64,000 bases of DNA from Gekko japonicus. Its lineage: Eukaryota. Positions 54,001-60,000 of this stretch are shown here, piece after piece. The position numbers were made by a program. Location: the NCBI RefSeq assembly GCF_001447785.1, contig NW_015165305.1:274415-338414 (forward strand), given 5' to 3'. Within the stretch, counting starts at the first letter, position 1. The number at the start of each line of letters is the position of its first letter.

Positions 54001-57000
54001 CAGGGCAGCTCTTCAGATGATGAACTTACTATTCAAACAACAGGGCCTAGAAAGTTTCCAGCGTTCCTCTCTTCACCGACCCTTAAGGCCAGGGAGGAAC
54101 TGAAGGACATAGAAAGCCAAACAAGGACCTTCTTTTGGGGAGAAAAGCCTCACCAATGTCGTGAGTGTGGGGAGAGCTTCAGAGTGAAGCAAGAACTTGC
54201 TTTGCACAAGAGAATCCACTGGCGGGAGAGGCCCTTCCCCTGTGCTGTTTGCGGGAAGANNNNNNNNNNNNNNNNNNNNNNNNNNNNNNNNNNNNNNNNN
54301 NNNNNNNNNNNNNNNNNNNNNNNNNNNNNNNNNNNNNNNNNNNNNNNNNNNNNNNNNNNNNNNNNNNNNNNNNNNNNNNNNNNNNNNNNNNNNNNNNNNN
54401 NNNNNNNNNNNNNNNNNNNNNNNNNNNNNNNNNNNNNNNNNNNNNNNNNNNNNNNNNNNNNNNNNNNNNNNNNNNNNNNNNNNNNNNNNNNNNNNNNNNN
54501 NNNNNNNNNNNNNNNNNNNNNNNNNNNNNNNNNNNNNNNNNNNNNNNNNNNNNNNNNNNNNNNNNNNNNNNNNNNNNNNNNNNNNNNNNNNNNNNNNNNN
54601 NNNNNNNNNNNNNNNNNNNNNNNNNNNNNNNNNNNNNNNNNNNNNNNNNNNNNNNNNNNNNNNNNNNNNNNNNNNNNNNNNNNNNNNNNNNNNNNNNNNN
54701 NNNNNNNNNNNNNNNNNNNNNNNNNNNNNNNNNNNNNNNNNNNNNNNNNNNNNNNNNNNNNNNNNNNNNNNNNNNNNNNNNNNNNNNNNNNNNNNNNNNN
54801 NNNNNNNNNNNNNNNNNNNNNNNNNNNNNNNNNNNNNNNNNNNNNNNNNNNNNNNNNNNNNNNNNNNNNNNNNNNNNNNNNNNNNNNNNNNNNNNNNNNN
54901 NNNNNNNNNNNNNNNNNNNNNNNNNNNNNNNNNNNNNNNNNNNNNNNNNNNNNNNNNNNNNNNNNNNNNNNNNNNNNNNNNNNNNNNNNNNNNNNNNNNN
55001 NNNNNNNNNNNNNNNNNNNNNNNNNNNNNNNNNNNNNNNNNNNNNNNNNNNNNNNNNNNNNNNNNNNNNNNNNNNNNNNNNNNNNNNNNNNNNNNNNNNN
55101 NNNNNNNNNNNNNNNNNNNNNNNNNNNNNNNNNNNNNNNNNNNNNNNNNNNNNNNNNNNNNNNNNNNNNNNNNNNNNNNNNNNNNNNNNNNNNNNNNNNN
55201 NNNNNNNNTACTAACCATTCCCATATGGATGCATTTTCTGGGGCAGTGAATGACAAGGGGAAAATCTCTTAATCCAGTACATTCTGCCCCATGAGCATGC
55301 TGGTAATAAAAAGACAAAAATTCACTTACATCTCAGGGATGGGGAGGTTTGTTTTTTGTTTTTTTAATAAAGGTGAACAAATAAAATATGATATCTCTGC
55401 CATTGTTGCATGGAAGATTATTAACTGGATACCACAGAAGATTGCTGCATATAACCCAAAGTCATTGTATATGTAGAAGTTCTAAAAGTTACTCCTTGGG
55501 GCCTCCTTGTGCTAAATAAAAGTGATTGTATCCCCACCATCTTTTCCATGCACACCTGACATAGTGCAAGATACCTCTTCTCATAAAATTTCAAAACCAA
55601 ATTAAATGAGATCATGTGTACCAACTGTTGTACATTCCATGTGGTTGTTATTAAAATTACATGGAGATGCTACACATTATTGCAGCTGTGCTAACTGCTT
55701 GCACAAGTGGAATTGCACAAAGTTCATTTTTTGCTCACAGAGTGGTTCTAATGGAGTTATCTCCATTAACTTTTTTGTGTTTTTCTGCATCTCCTGCAAA
55801 CGGCTCTAAGGAGACACTTCAAGCAAAAATTCTGCTGCATCTTTAAGATCATAAGAGGAACCCTGCTAGTTCAGCCCAGTGGACCATCTAGTTCATCATC
55901 CTGTTTTATTTTACTAGTTTCCCTGGAGGGCCAAGCTACAGGGCATAGAGGCCAAAGCCTCCCCTGATGTTGCCTCCTAGAAGTGGTGTTCAGAGATTTA
56001 TCGACTCTAAAAATGGAGATTCCCTTTAGTCACCTTGGCTAGTAGCCACTGATGAACCTATCCTCCTATCCTCTGATGAACCTATTCTGTCTAATCCCAT
56101 TTTGAAGTCATCCATGCTTATGGCCATCACCAGCAAGTGAGTGCATTCTTTCAACCCCTGCTGGTCAGAATATTATTTTGCATATAGACTGTGTTTTTAT
56201 TAGTGACCGTTCCCTGTAAGGTATGTTAGTATTATTATTAGGAGGCTATGACTGGCTTACCGAAGGCTTCCTGGGAGTTCATGACCGTGGACTTGAACCA
56301 CAGACTTTGGTTTCCACCCCAGGTCCATATTTTATGCAGTATCAGGTGGTAAAATATGTATGAAAGATGGAGAGTGAGGACTCCATAAGCTGAAATGCAC
56401 AGGTGAGCTGGCTCACAAGTAGCTAAGTTCACACTGGCTGAGATGAGCAAGCATTGTTTCCAAGTAATTTTACTTTCCTCCGATGTGGACCTGTCCTGAA
56501 ATTGCTCAAACTGGTCTTCACGGGCTCCTCCTGTGGTGGCCCTTCAGTCACCTGCTTTCCATAAGAAGATACTAGTTGCAGTTGGCAGGCATTCGAACCA
56601 GAGCACAGCAAAGGGACCTGTACCGTACAGGCTTGTGTGTCTAGTCTGGGCTGGTCTATATGGGAGAGCGCATCAGAAACTTTATGCAGAATACCATTCC
56701 CCCCTCCGTACGTGCATGTATTTTTACGAGATGGGTAGCTGTATTAGTTTGTCTAGCAGCAGAGAAGAACAAGAGACCAGTAGCATCTTAAAAACTTTTT
56801 TCAGGTAGTCTTTAAGGTGTTACTGGATTCTTCCTCTTTTTCTACTGTATTTTTACAGTGTTTCTTCTTCCACAGATGAATTCAGAGTAATTTTTTTCAT
56901 TCTCCCCCCCCATATAACATATATANNNNNNNNNNNNNNNNNNNNNNNNNNTATTTTTATTTTTTCAATAAGACTACAAACTACAAAGAAAAATATAGGA

Positions 57001-60000
57001 AGGGGAACTACAACTATGGATAAAGGAAAGAAACCCACACTAACTAAAAACCCAAGAGTGGGAGACCCCCTTTATGTTAACCTTAATATTAGTATTAAAA
57101 GAGTTAGTAAAACAATATACTTGTAGTTCTTGTTTTTCACATTGTTCTATATTAGTAAATTAGTTATTATGAGAGAATGTTCTGAGCATCTTCTTTATTT
57201 CAAAGAGCCATTTATCAGAGTCCTTCTGCCCTTACTTCGGCTTTCTGTCTCTAAAATCATATACAGTTTTCATTGCTCCCGCACCCGCTTCTGCAACAGA
57301 GTCCTCATCCGTTCCCGAGGCAGCTGAGTCACTTGACTTAGTTTCTTCCTCTTTAGATTCTTCCCCCGATCCCAGCTGGCATTTCAAGAATTCCTTGGCT
57401 TTGAACATGGAGTCTATCTTCTCCCTTCTATCGTTGATTTTAAAGATGACAGATTCAGGATTCGCCCACCTGTACTGTATACCATTTGTTTGAAGAAAAG
57501 TAATTAACTCCTTGTAGCTCTTTCTCTTCTGACGAATTTCAAATGGAATGTTTTTTAAAGTCTTGATAATTGTATTCCCAAATTTCAGTGGAGTTGCTGA
57601 AGTTGCCTTTAATATAGCATCTCTGGTCTGTCTTCTTGCAAATCTCACCACAATCTCTCCAGGCAGGCTAATTTTTTAAATATAATTTGACTAAGCTTTA
57701 NNNNNNNNNNNNNNNNNNNNNNNNNNNNNNNNNNNNNNNNNNNNNNNNNNNNNNNNNNNNNNNNNNNNNNNNNNNNNNNNNNNNNNNNNNNNNNNNNNNN
57801 NNNNNNNNNNNNNNNNNNNNNNNNNNNNNNNNNNNNNNNNNNNNNNNNNNNNNNNNNNNNNNNNNNNNNNNNNNNNNNNNNNNNNNNNNNNNNNNNNNNN
57901 NNNNNNNNNNNNNNNNNNNNNNNNNNNNNNNNNNNNTCTTCTTTTTCTGTCTCAGGAACCCCCTGGTACCTGAGAATCATATTAGCCTTTTCCATTTGCA
58001 ACTGCAGCAAACGATTTTCTTGAAGATTTTGTTTCATTTCCAATTCACCCATTCTTTTCTTCATCTTCTTGCTTGAGGTGTCCATCTCTGTAACTTTCTC
58101 AGCCACCAGCTCCACTTTTTTCCTGTTTCTGCCAGCTGTCGCTGTTGTGAAGGGAAGTTTTGATTTAACGAGGTCAGTTGCTGGTTAATACCATCGAGCT
58201 GATCCATCACTGGCTTGAGCATATCCGCTAACCGCTTCATGACGTCAGCTCCCTCTTCCGGCCTCGGACTCTGAGTACCAGGCTTCGCTTTAAACTTTCC
58301 TCGGGATGCTGCCATTTTTCAACTTTATTTACACTCAAACAGCTTCTCCCAGGCTCGAAGCACTTGTCAATTTGCTATTTGCACTCAAGTAAGTCTTTCA
58401 AAATACACACGCTGTCTGTTTCCTCCCACCCCCCCTTCGCTGCATTTATCTGTCCTTGCACTTCAGAGGCGTCCCTCTTTGCGCTCCGCTTTTCCCACGG
58501 GGGGGGTGCCGTTTATCAAAGTTCATTTACTTAGAACTCACGTTCATTGTTGGTCACATTCCTGACCTCGCTCACATCAATCGTTGCTCCGCTCGGTCTC
58601 CCCCGCTTGTCCTGGTCGGGTTAGCTTGTGCCCTAAGGCCACTCATTGGTAGGACAGTCAGAGTGGAGAGAAGCCTCGACTCTCCGGCAGCAAGCCGTCA
58701 AAGAGGCTATCCCTCAAAGCTCTCTGGCCTGGAGCCTTTCACAAAGGCTCCGTGGGAGTGCCACTTGAGGTGGCACCCCTCCATGCTAATCGCCTCCCCA
58801 AGCTCTGGGGAGAGCGACCGCCATCGCCAATCCATAGACCGGAAGTACCCCATATATTTCTATGTCAACTCTAATTTTGATGTGATTTGGTTGTTGGAGT
58901 TGATATCGGATGATCTGGGAGTTCTGGCAATTAAATTAATGGTGGCTCATTAGCACACGTAGGTAGTCACTTGAATCAATGAAGAATAAGCACAGAAGTG
59001 CGAACTGATCCTAAGGCATCCTAGGTTTGACTTGGGGTGTATAGCTTTTGCTGTCACTCAGGGTCTGACTGGTGTTATGTCAGGTATGGGGGAAATTTGC
59101 CACAATGTCACTGGTGGCTTTAGGCAGCATACGTTCCCTGAGTTTCTGCCAGCAATTTGGAGATAATAAAATCAACCTACCTTAAGGAGTTGTAAGAATT
59201 ACTGAGATGATGCCTGGGAAGTGCTATGCAGAGTATAAAGCAATACGTAAATGTTAAAGGTTGGATTTGTATAGACATATTGATTTTTAAAAGTTTCCTG
59301 CCTTCTCCTGGGATGTCTTTCTAATAACAGGCTGTGCCTTATTTCCTGTTGCAAGCCAAATGGTGGGCCAGATGGCCTGAACAACTTTATAACCCACATT
59401 CTTCACACTTCCATGCTAGAAGCTAGACCTCATGGCTCCACACTCTGGCCCACTTGCGACCAGTCACGTACACAATGAAGTACCTGGAGTTTGGGTCAGA
59501 TGACTGCAGGCGAGGTCCCAAACGTATAGCCTATCCCCACATGCAGCTATGACAACCAACAATTGGCCACACCCCCTGTCCACTCGTGATTGGCCGAATG
59601 GCCACGGCTAATCATGATTAGATTGGGGTATAATTGATTGATCCCTATGGGAGTGAGCTTTCTTGCTCTCGCTCTCTCCCCTGTCATTGTCTGTTTTATT
59701 GCACCTGAAATGCTGTCTCTTGGAAAACAAAGACCTGCTTTGTGAATTGGACCACATGCTGTGCAAGATGGAATTTCTCTTCAAAATCCCTTGGTATATA
59801 GTTGGACTGTTGGATGTTCCTGAATTGGTAACTATGTATCTTTAATGTGTAGTTAAGGCAAATTGCCCTAGCCTTTGTTATTTTGTAATCTAGTCTGTTT
59901 GCTGTGCTCTGTACTGAATAAAGATCCTTCTTATTTCTAATGGTCTCTGAGGTTGTAACTTGGATTCCAAGTCTAAAATCTTGTGCCTAACGCTCACCAC

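What the first reader, a model, noticed from the sequence alone, without database searches (positions are those of the whole stretch)
56952..58850. Full-length ORF1-only L1 derivative (HAL1-like) in a squamate
Seen: an intact-looking 5' end (ETS ACTTCCGG plus YY1-like GATGGCGG), a ~535-bp CpG-rich 5' UTR, a ~1.08-kb ORF1 with an acidic tail, then only ~280 bp ending in a T-rich stretch, AATAAA and an A-run. There is no endonuclease or RT sequence. Both flanks share catatat, a possible TSD partly hidden by 26 N. Established: 'half-L1' non-autonomous elements encoding only ORF1 are described mainly from mammals. Inference: an independently derived reptile HAL1 family that parasitises L1 ORF2p. 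This copy is inactivated.
[Added by the scan's program, not by the reader: the finding's places include an assembly gap (unread letters, written N; its length is only estimated) at 57701 to 57936. Whether the letters on both sides are continuous or in frame is not known: test that first.]
Basis: partly seen in the sequence, partly recalled or inferred. Interest (0 to 1): 0.7.

Follow-up and report, generated by a model that had tools for sequence, protein, structure and literature searches.

The report
ORF1-only L1 retrotransposon copy, lizard-type
This is a young, roughly 1.9-kb copy of an L1 jumping gene that keeps its promoter end and its first gene but has no second (copying-enzyme) gene, like the mammalian "half-L1" elements; whether it belongs to a spreading family could not be tested here.

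Summary
On the minus strand there is an L1-type 5' terminus (58819-58846). It is followed by a 535-bp CpG-enriched 5'UTR and an ORF1 (58315-57232) with an acidic tail. After the stop come 280 AT-rich bases with stops in all three frames, ending in AATAAA just before a 26-N gap. Short direct repeats flank the whole unit.

The ORF1 is a true L1 ORF1p relative, shown by homologues, a profile match to solved L1 ORF1p structures and a fold match. No endonuclease or RT signal was found between 55209 and 60600.

The 5' terminus fits the consensus published for Anolis L1 clade 1. In that clade ORF2 starts 0-110 bp after ORF1, so the tail looks like a 3'UTR rather than a spacer.

Caveats:
- No poly(A) is visible.
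- The 236-N gap is about 145 nt longer than homologues need.
- Both frameshifts sit in A6 runs and could be assembly errors.
- Only one copy could be examined, because no eukaryotic genome collection was available.

"HAL1-like architecture" is therefore supported. "Propagating family that uses L1 ORF2p" remains untested. Squamate origin is plausible but unverified.

The parts
58848..58857 (.). Direct repeat on the 5' side of the element (candidate target-site duplication: CCCCATATA 58848-58856 or CATATAT 58851-58857)
   Evidence: A shared 9-mer in 20-bp windows occurred in 85 of 190,155 random pairs. A shared 7-mer in 12-bp windows occurred in 514 of 190,571.
58819..58846 (-). L1 5'-terminal motif ACTTCCGGT-N12-ATGGCG (ETS-like plus YY1-like core), marking an untruncated 5' end
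   Evidence: 1 match in the window, and 0 of 100 shuffles gave a match. The consensus for the Anolis L1 clade-1 5' extremity is quoted in PMC5381506. The ETS and YY1 labels are recalled, not tested.
58316..58850 (-). 5'UTR, 535 bp, GC- and CpG-enriched (presumed internal promoter)
   Evidence: (computed on 58319-58850): GC 0.54 and CpG o/e 0.65, against 0.30 for the window and about 0.2 for the flanks. Promoter function is inferred.
58129..58315 (-). ORF1 piece 1: start codon (58315-58313) and N-terminal/coiled-coil start
   Evidence: 46% identity to P0001 residues 2-55.
58116..58121 (-). A6 run where the ORF1 frame changes for the first time
   Evidence: Collinearity with P0001 continues in the other frame.
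57937..58121 (-). ORF1 piece 2: coiled coil up to the start of the RRM (…LRYQGVPETEKE)
   Evidence: 56% identity to P0001 residues 66-119. This motif column (LRxQNxxE) is conserved in alignment A1.
57701..57936 (.). Run of 236 N inside the RRM-coding part of ORF1; not filled
   Evidence: Homologues need only about 28 hidden residues here.
57672..57677 (-). A6 run where the ORF1 frame changes for the second time
57232..57675 (-). ORF1 piece 3: end of RRM, C-terminal domain, acidic tail, TAA stop (57232-57234)
   Evidence: HMMER found 158 relatives at E<=1e-3, the best at 4.4e-36. 27 of 30 Atlas hits carry the same L1 ORF1 Pfam family set. The model has pLDDT 78, and the top 10 fold matches are all LINE-1 ORF1p.
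56952..57231 (-). Non-coding 3' tail (presumed 3'UTR): AT-rich, T-rich second half
   Evidence: GC 0.30 and 0 CpG; 4, 3 and 17 stops in the three frames; no Pfam EN or RT. Its length and GC fall within the Anolis clade-1 3'UTR range.
56956..56961 (-). AATAAA polyadenylation signal, 4 nt before the N run
56926..56951 (.). Run of 26 N where the poly(A) tail and 3' junction would lie; not filled
56908..56925 (.). Direct repeat on the 3' side of the element (CCCCATATA 56908-56916 or CATATAT 56918-56924)

Best explanation
This is a recent insertion of an L1 derivative made of a 5'UTR, ORF1 and a 3'UTR only, i.e. a half-L1 (HAL1-like) unit of about 1.9 kb.

Proposed mechanism:
- The internal promoter at the conserved L1 5' terminus drives a short transcript.
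- The transcript is polyadenylated at the AATAAA at the end of the tail.
- It encodes ORF1p, which can coat its own RNA.
- It supplies no endonuclease or reverse transcriptase, so integration by target-primed reverse transcription must use ORF2p from an autonomous L1 of the same genome.

Shown here:
- L1 ORF1p homology.
- A canonical L1 5' start.
- Absence of ORF2 in the readable sequence.
- A 3'UTR-like tail with a poly(A) signal.
- Flanking direct repeats.
- Signs of youth: retained CpG and no nonsense codon.

Inferred:
- Trans-mobilisation by ORF2p.
- That the ORF2-less RNA is the replicating unit of a family rather than a single accident.

My odds: about 0.8 that it is a genuinely ORF2-less retrotransposed L1 derivative, and about 0.45-0.5 that it belongs to a propagating HAL1-like family.
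For: L1 ORF1p identity:
- The C-terminal piece finds 158 relatives at E<=1e-3, 20 of them at E<=1e-10.
- A profile of this piece plus 24 relatives matches human LINE-1 ORF1p (2ykp, E 3.4e-11; 2yko, E 6e-11) and 2ldy (E 6.5e-10), over the coiled-coil end, RRM and CTD.
- 8 of 25 alignment members match Pfam Transposase_22 at E<=0.1.
- The AlphaFold model has pLDDT 78, and its 10 best PDB fold matches are all LINE-1 ORF1p.
- 27 of 30 Atlas hits carry the same L1 ORF1 Pfam family set.

Untruncated L1 start:
- The 5'-terminal motif occurs once in the window, and none of 100 shuffles gave a match.
- It fits the Anolis clade-1 5'-extremity consensus (passage of PMC5381506).

No ORF2:
- None of 64 frames in the tail and both flanks hit an EN or RT family.
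- tblastn with an ORF1+ORF2 relative hits ORF1 only.
- The tail has 4, 3 and 17 stops in its three frames.

Tail looks like a 3'UTR:
- It is 280 bp at GC 0.30.
- The Anolis clade-1 3'UTR is 345+/-118 bp [194-570] at GC 33%. The clade-1 inter-ORF spacer is 24+/-48 bp [0-110].
- Lizard L1 3'UTRs are described as carrying T-rich or pyrimidine tracts and ending in AATAAA plus poly(A).

Insertion signature: the flanking 7-9-nt direct repeats are rarer than chance.

Youth:
- CpG o/e is 0.55-0.65 in the element against about 0.2 in the flanks.
- There is no nonsense codon in 848 readable coding bases.

Weak hint of repetitiveness: 2 of the 7 N runs in the window fall in or at this 1.9-kb unit. By my own arithmetic the binomial chance is about 0.02.
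Against: - Only one copy could be examined. The window holds no second copy, and no eukaryotic genome collection was available, so there is no evidence for a family, for a shared ORF1-to-tail junction, or for selection on ORF1.
- The poly(A) tail is not visible, and the 3' junction lies in 26 N whose true length is unknown.
- The direct repeats are low-complexity (CATATAT / CCCCATATA), and two alternatives exist.
- The tail length (280 bp) also falls within the range of the long inter-ORF spacers of Anolis clade 2 (270-384 bp), although its GC of 30% is below their 39.6-50%.
- The 5'UTR (535 bp) is shorter than any Anolis clade-1 5'UTR (792-1,465 bp), so the Anolis figures may not transfer to this host.
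- Pfam does not recognise the window's ORF1 pieces directly, nor does a single-sequence PDB search.
Confidence: 0.5

Rival explanations
1. A one-off ORF2-less retrocopy, not a family. A transcript of an autonomous L1 lost ORF2 before it was reverse-transcribed. This could happen by premature polyadenylation in a long AT-rich inter-ORF spacer or by splicing. Alternatively, ORF2 was deleted from a full-length insertion afterwards.
For: - Only one copy is seen.
- The introduction of PMC5381506 says the A-bias of the L1 ORFs could account for premature polyadenylation signals, citing Perepelitsa-Belancio and Deininger 2003. I saw this only as a passage and a reference entry.
- A second AATAAA lies early in the tail, at 57194-57199.
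Against: - The 5' terminus is of the Anolis clade-1 type, where spacers are 0-110 bp and ORF2 often overlaps ORF1.
- Premature polyadenylation 280 nt downstream in such an element would leave recognisable open endonuclease coding sequence. There is none, although ORF1 is nearly intact.
- Tail GC (30%) is below the clade-2 spacer range of 39.6-50%.
- A random internal deletion would rarely remove ORF2 this cleanly (inference).
Confidence: 0.3
2. An assembly artefact. This is the 5' part of an ordinary full-length L1, and the 26-N run (whose length is only estimated) hides ORF2, the 3'UTR and the poly(A).
For: - N-run lengths here are unreliable. The 236-N run is about 145 nt longer than homologues require.
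- Young repeats are the places where assemblies break.
- 280 bp is a possible spacer length in some L1 clades.
Against: - AATAAA and a T-rich tract lie immediately before the N run, and the flanking direct repeat lies immediately after it. That is the order expected at a real 3' end.
- The far side of the N run shows no ORF2 or L1 3'UTR-like coding remnant.
- An error of about 4 kb on a 26-nt estimate would be far larger than the error seen at the other run.
Confidence: 0.08
3. A host gene or exon derived from L1 ORF1 (like L1TD1, or the reptile 'Lyosin' exon of MYL4), or a pseudogene of one, rather than a transposon copy.
For: - ORF1-derived host exons exist in reptiles. For PMC12129022 I read the abstract and section 11.
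- The stop codon overlaps a donor-like GTAAGG (…GAA|GTAAGG…, 57229-57234 region).
- ORF1 has no nonsense codon.
Against: - The unit starts exactly at a canonical L1 5' terminus.
- It carries its own poly(A) signal and flanking direct repeats.
- It has two frame changes.
- The nearest minus-strand coding ORFs found are more than 26 kb away.
Confidence: 0.04

Closest known systems
Mammalian HAL1 (half-L1) elements
   Same: An L1-derived unit that encodes only ORF1p and no ORF2. It is non-autonomous and about 2 kb long. The definition comes from a passage of PMC5753468. The likely dependence of HAL1 on L1 machinery comes from a passage of PMC4161310.
   Different: - Per the cited passage, HAL1s are described as arising several times within mammals. 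This one carries a lizard-type L1 5' terminus and an ORF1p only distantly related to mammalian ORF1p (16% identity in the fold alignment).
- Family status, copy number and selection on ORF1 are not shown here.
- The primary paper (Bao and Jurka 2010) was not held. What I say of it beyond the citing passages is recalled.
Autonomous L1 of the green anole, clade 1 (L1_AC families; PMC5381506)
   Same: - 5' extremity motif ACTTCCGGT…ATGGCG.
- GC- and CpG-rich 5'UTR.
- ORF1 of about 1 kb.
- AT-rich 3'UTR of a few hundred bases with T-rich tracts, ending in AATAAA.
   Different: - No ORF2 (3.7-3.8 kb in the anole).
- 5'UTR is 535 bp against 792-1,465 bp.
- The spacer in the 5' motif is 12 nt rather than 8.
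- 5'UTR GC is 54% against 45%.
Truncated or spliced L1 transcripts that retrotranspose once (premature polyadenylation; spliced integrated retrotransposed elements)
   Same: These give 5'-intact, internally shortened L1 copies with target-site duplications.
   Different: They are sporadic events without a replicating lineage. The spliced-element literature is recalled; I read no paper on it. Premature polyadenylation was seen only as a passage and a reference in PMC5381506.
Drosophila HeT-A telomeric retrotransposon
   Same: A non-LTR element that carries only the Gag/ORF1-type gene and relies on a reverse transcriptase supplied in trans. This is recalled. A preprint using the term 'ORF1-only' for telomeric elements was seen only in a search listing.
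   Different: It belongs to a different LINE clade (Jockey), has a telomere-specific role, and encodes an unrelated Gag.
Domesticated L1 ORF1 genes (L1TD1; reptile/bird Lyosin exon of MYL4)
   Same: The protein is derived from L1 ORF1p with coiled coil, RRM and CTD (PMC4161310 passages; PMC12129022 abstract and section 11).
   Different: Those are host genes or exons without an L1 promoter end, poly(A) signal or target-site duplication. This locus has all the marks of an insertion.

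Membership tests
L1 ORF1p (coiled coil - RRM - CTD type; Pfam Transposase_22 / Tnp_22_dsRBD) | C-terminal domain with the L1 ORF1p fold | tested here: met
   The model of 57232-57675 has pLDDT 78. 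Its 10 best PDB fold matches are all LINE-1 ORF1p, including the mouse CTD 2jrb. 27 of 30 Atlas hits carry the same set of families, Tnp_22_dsRBD / Transposase_22.
L1 ORF1p (coiled coil - RRM - CTD type; Pfam Transposase_22 / Tnp_22_dsRBD) | Non-canonical RRM domain | tested here: inconclusive
   Most of the RRM lies under the 236 N. Only its entry (…LRYQGVPE…) and its last strand and helix are readable, and they align with the RRM columns of relatives and of human ORF1p.
L1 ORF1p (coiled coil - RRM - CTD type; Pfam Transposase_22 / Tnp_22_dsRBD) | N-terminal coiled coil | tested here: inconclusive
   No coiled-coil predictor was run. The pieces are collinear with P0001 residues 2-119 and give only weak hits to helical or coiled families. 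The family profile aligns its helical part with the human ORF1p coiled-coil end.
L1 ORF1p (coiled coil - RRM - CTD type; Pfam Transposase_22 / Tnp_22_dsRBD) | Score above the Pfam gathering threshold | tested here: not met
   None of the 3 window pieces matched the L1 families. Among 20 relatives scanned, 2 pass the PF02994 threshold (P0019 at 24.4 bits and P0021 at 23.9 bits, against 22.4), and 5 more match below it. Homology rests on the transitive and profile evidence.
Full-length (5'-untruncated) lizard-type L1 | Conserved 5' extremity GACTTCCGGTGN8ATGGCG | tested here: met
   ACTTCCGGTC-N12-ATGGCG lies at 58819-58846, right at the boundary with the flanking repeat. It is the only match in the window, and none of 100 shuffles gave a match. 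The consensus comes from PMC5381506. The spacer differs (12 against 8), and the first base is T rather than G.
HAL1 (half-L1) non-autonomous elements | Derived from L1 and encoding ORF1p | tested here: met
HAL1 (half-L1) non-autonomous elements | No ORF2 (endonuclease or reverse transcriptase) between ORF1 and the 3' end | tested here: met
   None of 64 frames had EN or RT hits. tblastn with an ORF1+ORF2 relative hit ORF1 only. The tail has stops in all frames. This holds for the readable sequence only; the 26 N were not resolved.
HAL1 (half-L1) non-autonomous elements | Retrotransposed unit: poly(A) tail and target-site duplication | tested here: inconclusive
   AATAAA lies 4 nt before the N run, and 7-9-nt flanking direct repeats are rarer than chance. 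The poly(A) itself is not visible.
HAL1 (half-L1) non-autonomous elements | Multi-copy family sharing the same ORF1-to-3'UTR junction | not testable with these tools
   There is no second copy in the window. The only open DNA collection holds bacteria and archaea, and the other two are closed. The protein look-ups gave no close copies.
HAL1 (half-L1) non-autonomous elements | Mobilised by ORF2p of an autonomous L1 | not testable with these tools
   This needs a retrotransposition assay or the partner L1 of the same genome. No L1 ORF2 is present anywhere in the window.

The most novel reading that the evidence does not exclude
An independently evolved and still active HAL1-type lineage outside mammals. 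In this reading the two frame changes are homopolymer assembly errors and ORF1 is intact. Many young copies share this junction, and ORF1 is kept by selection. That would show that carrying one's own ORF1p is a recurrent, convergent strategy for hijacking L1 ORF2p in amniotes.
Probability: 0.25. Interest if true: 0.55.

Novelty: new member of a known kind. Interest (0 to 1): 0.4.

Why it matters
Half-L1 elements are described in the passages I read as a mammalian phenomenon that arose several times (PMC5753468). A lizard-type counterpart would extend that convergence to another amniote lineage. It would also give a second, independent system for asking why an ORF2-less element keeps ORF1. One possible answer is that ORF1p made in cis helps an RNA to capture ORF2p made in trans. 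The practical value is modest. Such a family would need its own repeat-library entry, and its intact-looking ORF1 copies can be mistaken for genes by annotation pipelines. As it stands this is one copy, so the significance is conditional on the family test.

Tried and rejected
- Direct Pfam scan of the three ORF1 pieces: no L1 family found.
- Direct single-sequence search of PDB sequences: nothing below E 0.38.
- Word-indexed protein searches with the C-terminal piece, 'longer' and 'near': no hit. The search with P0001 returned only P0001 itself. These are weak negatives.
The organisms of the relatives therefore stay unknown.
- Self-comparison of the element against the window, by blastn and tblastn: no other copy.
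- Rfam scan of 55200-60600: only two sub-threshold chance matches.
- Tandem-repeat and repeat scans: nothing structural beyond short chance pairs.
- Bacterial promoter/terminator scan of the tail: nothing. This tool is not suited to a eukaryote.
- Bao and Jurka 2010 could not be read.
- Literature searches for a lizard or reptile HAL1 or ORF1-only L1 listed no paper whose title or abstract start describes one. Of the papers holding both 'HAL1' and 'lizard' I read passages of one only, and one search was badly posed, returning only reptile papers. Repbase itself could not be consulted.
- Considered and set aside: ORF2 start or remnant in the tail, and a host-gene exon (see rivals).
- Not done: a joined read-through of the ORF1 pieces was neither built nor searched. 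The pieces were handled one by one.
- Not done: the N runs were not filled.
- Not done: the genome-contig scan was not spent, because that collection holds only bacteria and archaea.
- The window is not taken for human.

Full report
WHAT IS THERE

The feature lies on the minus strand. Read 5' to 3' it has six parts.

(a) A flanking short repeat.

(b) The string ACTTCCGGTCTATGGATTGGCGATGGCG at 58846-58819.

(c) A 535-bp leader (58850-58316). On 58319-58850 it has GC 0.54 and 24 CpG, with CpG o/e 0.65. The window as a whole is 0.30 and the two flanks are 0.19 and 0.21.

(d) An open reading frame from ATG 58315 to TAA 57234-57232.

(e) 280 non-coding bases (57231-56952). GC is 0.30 and there are no CpG. 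The three frames hold 4, 3 and 17 stops. The second half is T-rich, and AATAAA lies 4 nt before a run of 26 N.

(f) Beyond the N run, the matching short repeat.

Two points need qualifying:
- The 'A-run' is only GAAAAAATAAAAATA, so no poly(A) tail is actually visible.
- The '1.08-kb ORF1' counts 236 N. Only 848 nt can be read.

THE GAP INSIDE ORF1 (tested first, as asked)

Before the N run the protein reads …LRYQGVPETEKE. After it, it reads KLSQIIFKK, then changes frame and continues ISLPGEIVVRF….

Both sides are collinear, in order and orientation, with one 305-aa relative, P0001:
- The start piece covers P0001 residues 2-55.
- The piece before the gap covers residues 66-119.
- The piece after the gap covers residues 159-302.
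- Identities are 46-56%.

So the two sides belong to one ORF1. If the run is taken as exactly 236 nt, the frame is formally continuous. P0001 and the other relatives leave room for only about 28 hidden residues, or about 85-95 nt. The written length is therefore about 145 nt too long, or something else lies there. Continuity and frame cannot be established, and I did not try to fill the run.

STATE OF THE ORF

The frame changes twice, at A6 runs at 58116-58121 and 57672-57677. Each change is in the direction expected for one missing base. There is no nonsense codon in the readable coding sequence. Homopolymer runs are classic places for assembly errors. So 'inactivated' is possible but not secure.

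I handled the three ORF1 pieces separately throughout. I did not build or search a joined read-through.

WHAT THE PROTEIN IS

Negative results:
- Pfam does not recognise the pieces directly.
- A single-sequence search of PDB sequences finds nothing.

Positive results:
- A full HMMER scan with the 147-aa C-terminal piece finds 158 relatives at E<=1e-3. The best is P0001 at 4.4e-36 and 50% identity.
- Of 20 relatives scanned, 2 pass the Pfam threshold for Transposase_22 and 5 more match below it.
- 8 of the 25 members of alignment A1 match Transposase_22 at E<=0.1.
- A profile of A1 matches human LINE-1 ORF1p (2ykp at 3.4e-11, 2yko at 6e-11), 2ldy (6.5e-10) and the human RRM (2w7a at 1.2e-7). 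The match runs over the coiled-coil end, RRM and CTD.
- The AlphaFold model of the piece has mean pLDDT 78, above 90 over most of residues 11-100, with a disordered acidic tail. Its 10 best fold matches in the PDB are all LINE-1 ORF1p, each with probability 1.00.
- In the Atlas look-up, 27 of 30 hits carry the same set of L1 ORF1 families.
- One relative, the chimeric gene model P0025, carries the ORF1-like part followed by sequence that I read as L1 ORF2-like. That reading is mine and was not confirmed by any domain search.

Acidic or mixed-charge C-terminal tails are common in these relatives. The acidic tail is therefore a family trait, not a peculiarity of this copy.

THE 5' END

Passages of Boissinot and Sookdeo 2016 (PMC5381506) give the relevant background for the green anole:
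- Clade-1 L1 families share a conserved 5' extremity, GACTTCCGGTGN8ATGGCG.
- They have long GC-rich 5'UTRs with CpG islands.
- They have little or no inter-ORF spacer: 24+/-48 bp, range 0-110. Six of nine families have none and five overlap.
- They have 3'UTRs of 345+/-118 bp (194-570) at about 33% GC.

The same paper says that lizard 3'UTRs carry pyrimidine or T-rich tracts. It also says all L1s end in AATAAA plus poly(A).

The window's string fits that 5' consensus, with a 12-nt instead of an 8-nt spacer. It is unique in the window, and none of 100 shuffles gave a match. It sits exactly at the boundary with the flanking repeat. The element is therefore not 5'-truncated. The leader (535 bp, 54% GC) is shorter and more GC-rich than any anole clade-1 5'UTR (792-1,465 bp, 45%). 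The anole figures may therefore not transfer fully to this host. The ETS and YY1 names for the two motifs are recalled labels. I did not test factor binding.

IS ORF2 REALLY ABSENT?

- None of 64 stop-to-stop frames from the left flank (55209-56925), the tail and the right flank (58851-60600) matched an endonuclease or reverse-transcriptase family at E<=0.05.
- tblastn with the ORF1-plus-ORF2 part of P0025 hits only ORF1 anywhere in the 64 kb.
- ORF1 is almost intact. An ORF2 start lying 0-110 bp downstream, as in anole clade 1, should still be open and recognisable. It is not.
- The tail's length, low GC, T-rich tract and terminal AATAAA fit a 3'UTR.
- The one competing reading is a long inter-ORF spacer of the clade-2, frog or fish kind (257-1,032 bp). 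Anole clade-2 spacers are G-rich, with GC 39.6-50%, against 30% here.

INSERTION SIGNATURE

The two flanks share CATATAT (56918-56924 and 58851-58857) or, shifted, CCCCATATA (56908-16 and 58848-56). I sampled random position pairs 1.9 kb apart in this window:
- A shared 9-mer within 20-bp windows occurred in 85 of 190,155 trials.
- A shared 7-mer within 12-bp windows occurred in 514 of 190,571 trials.

A target-site duplication is therefore likely. Its exact extent and the 3' junction are hidden by the 26 N.

AGE AND COPY NUMBER

Retained CpG and the absence of nonsense codons point to a recent insertion.

The window holds no second copy. Two of the window's seven N runs fall in or at this 1.9-kb unit. 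By my arithmetic the binomial chance is about 0.02. This hints at a repeat that troubled the assembler, but autonomous relatives sharing ORF1, or the poly(A) itself, would have the same effect.

The family test asks for many copies sharing the ORF1-to-tail junction. It could not be run:
- The only open DNA collection holds bacteria and archaea.
- The word-indexed protein searches returned nothing useful.

INTERPRETATION

The most likely reading is a retrotransposed L1 derivative that lacks ORF2: 5'UTR-ORF1-3'UTR, the architecture of a half-L1.

Proposed mechanism:
- Transcription starts from the internal promoter.
- The transcript is polyadenylated at the terminal AATAAA.
- ORF1p is translated and coats the RNA.
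- Integration happens by target-primed reverse transcription, using ORF2p borrowed from an autonomous L1.

I put about 0.8 on 'genuinely ORF2-less retrocopy' and about 0.45-0.5 on 'member of a propagating HAL1-like family'.

Rivals:
- A one-off event, about 0.3. This could be premature polyadenylation in a long spacer, a spliced transcript, or a later deletion.
- ORF2 hidden in the N run, about 0.08.
- A domesticated ORF1 gene or exon of the L1TD1 or Lyosin kind, about 0.04 (PMC4161310 passages; PMC12129022 abstract and section 11). The canonical L1 start, the poly(A) signal, the flanking repeats and the frame changes all argue against this last rival.

COMPARISON WITH WHAT IS KNOWN

HAL1 is defined as a non-autonomous L1 derivative that encodes only ORF1p and arose several times in mammals (passage of PMC5753468). 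It is thought to use L1 machinery (passage of PMC4161310). The primary paper, Bao and Jurka 2010, was not held.

This unit meets the architectural criteria. The criteria that make a family are untested: multiple copies, a shared junction, and mobilisation in trans.

Searches of the held library listed no paper whose title or abstract start describes a lizard or reptile HAL1 or ORF1-only L1. One search was badly posed. Repbase and supplements were not consulted, so this is no proof that none is described.

HOST

I do not take the window for human. Squamate origin is plausible:
- The 5' terminus is lizard-type, although zebrafish L1 starts with a similar GGACTTCCGGTT.
- The neighbourhood holds SCAN and C2H2 zinc-finger genes.

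No taxonomic test was possible.

VERDICT

This is a real and well-described feature. It is a new member of a known kind if the family exists, and an ordinary defective L1 retrocopy if it does not. Interest is moderate.

Noticed in passing
window 13288-14748 (-): An uninterrupted 486-aa frame matches DUF5575 (central RNaseH-like domain, E 1.9e-62), DUF5575_C, DUF5575_N and the ZSWIM1-3 RNaseH-like domain. It ends with a SWIM-like CxC…CxH motif. It looks like an intronless ZSWIM1/3-type gene derived from a transposase.
   Followed up: partly
window 29750-30973 (-), 25515-26051 (-); 44426-45477 (+), 53704-55272 (+): There are two SCAN-domain exons (E 6e-39 and 6e-38), each followed on the same strand by a C2H2 zinc-finger exon. 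That makes two convergently oriented SCAN-ZNF genes. The element lies about 1.6 kb beyond the end of the plus-strand zinc-finger exon, in antisense orientation.
   Followed up: partly
window 54260-55208, 45478-45537, 48672-48771, 41088-41097, 53273-53288: There are five further N runs, of 949, 60, 100, 10 and 16 nt. The largest replaces most of a zinc-finger array, and another follows directly on the last matched residue of a SCAN-domain exon. Whether they are gaps or masks cannot be told, and they were not filled.
   Followed up: no
window 57229-57236 (-): The ORF1 stop codon overlaps a splice-donor-like string (…GAA|GTAAGG…). If it were used, the stop would be spliced out. No downstream acceptor or exon was looked for.
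   Followed up: no
window 58393-58953 (+): A 186-aa stop-free frame runs antisense through the GC-rich 5'UTR and into the flank. It is probably a by-product of composition and was not searched.
   Followed up: no
window 56760-56850: The left flank holds two oppositely oriented stretches of similar wording (…ccagtagcatcttaaaaac… and …gtctttaaggtgttactgg…). They resemble a short interspersed repeat in inverted pairs. The repeat finder did not list them among its 25 longest pairs.
   Followed up: no
protein P0025, not in the window: This 1,616-aa predicted protein from the public library strings together C2H2 zinc fingers, an L1 ORF1-like part (40% identical to the window's piece) and a stretch that I read as L1 ORF2-like (no domain search confirmed it). 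It is evidently a gene model that ran through an L1 in a zinc-finger cluster, a setting much like this window.
   Followed up: partly
protein P0001, not in the window: P0001 is the only close relative of all three ORF1 pieces (46-56% identity). It is known from a single 1,540-nt contig that could hold little more than its 918-nt ORF. Whether that contig also lacks ORF2 cannot be seen with these tools.
   Followed up: no
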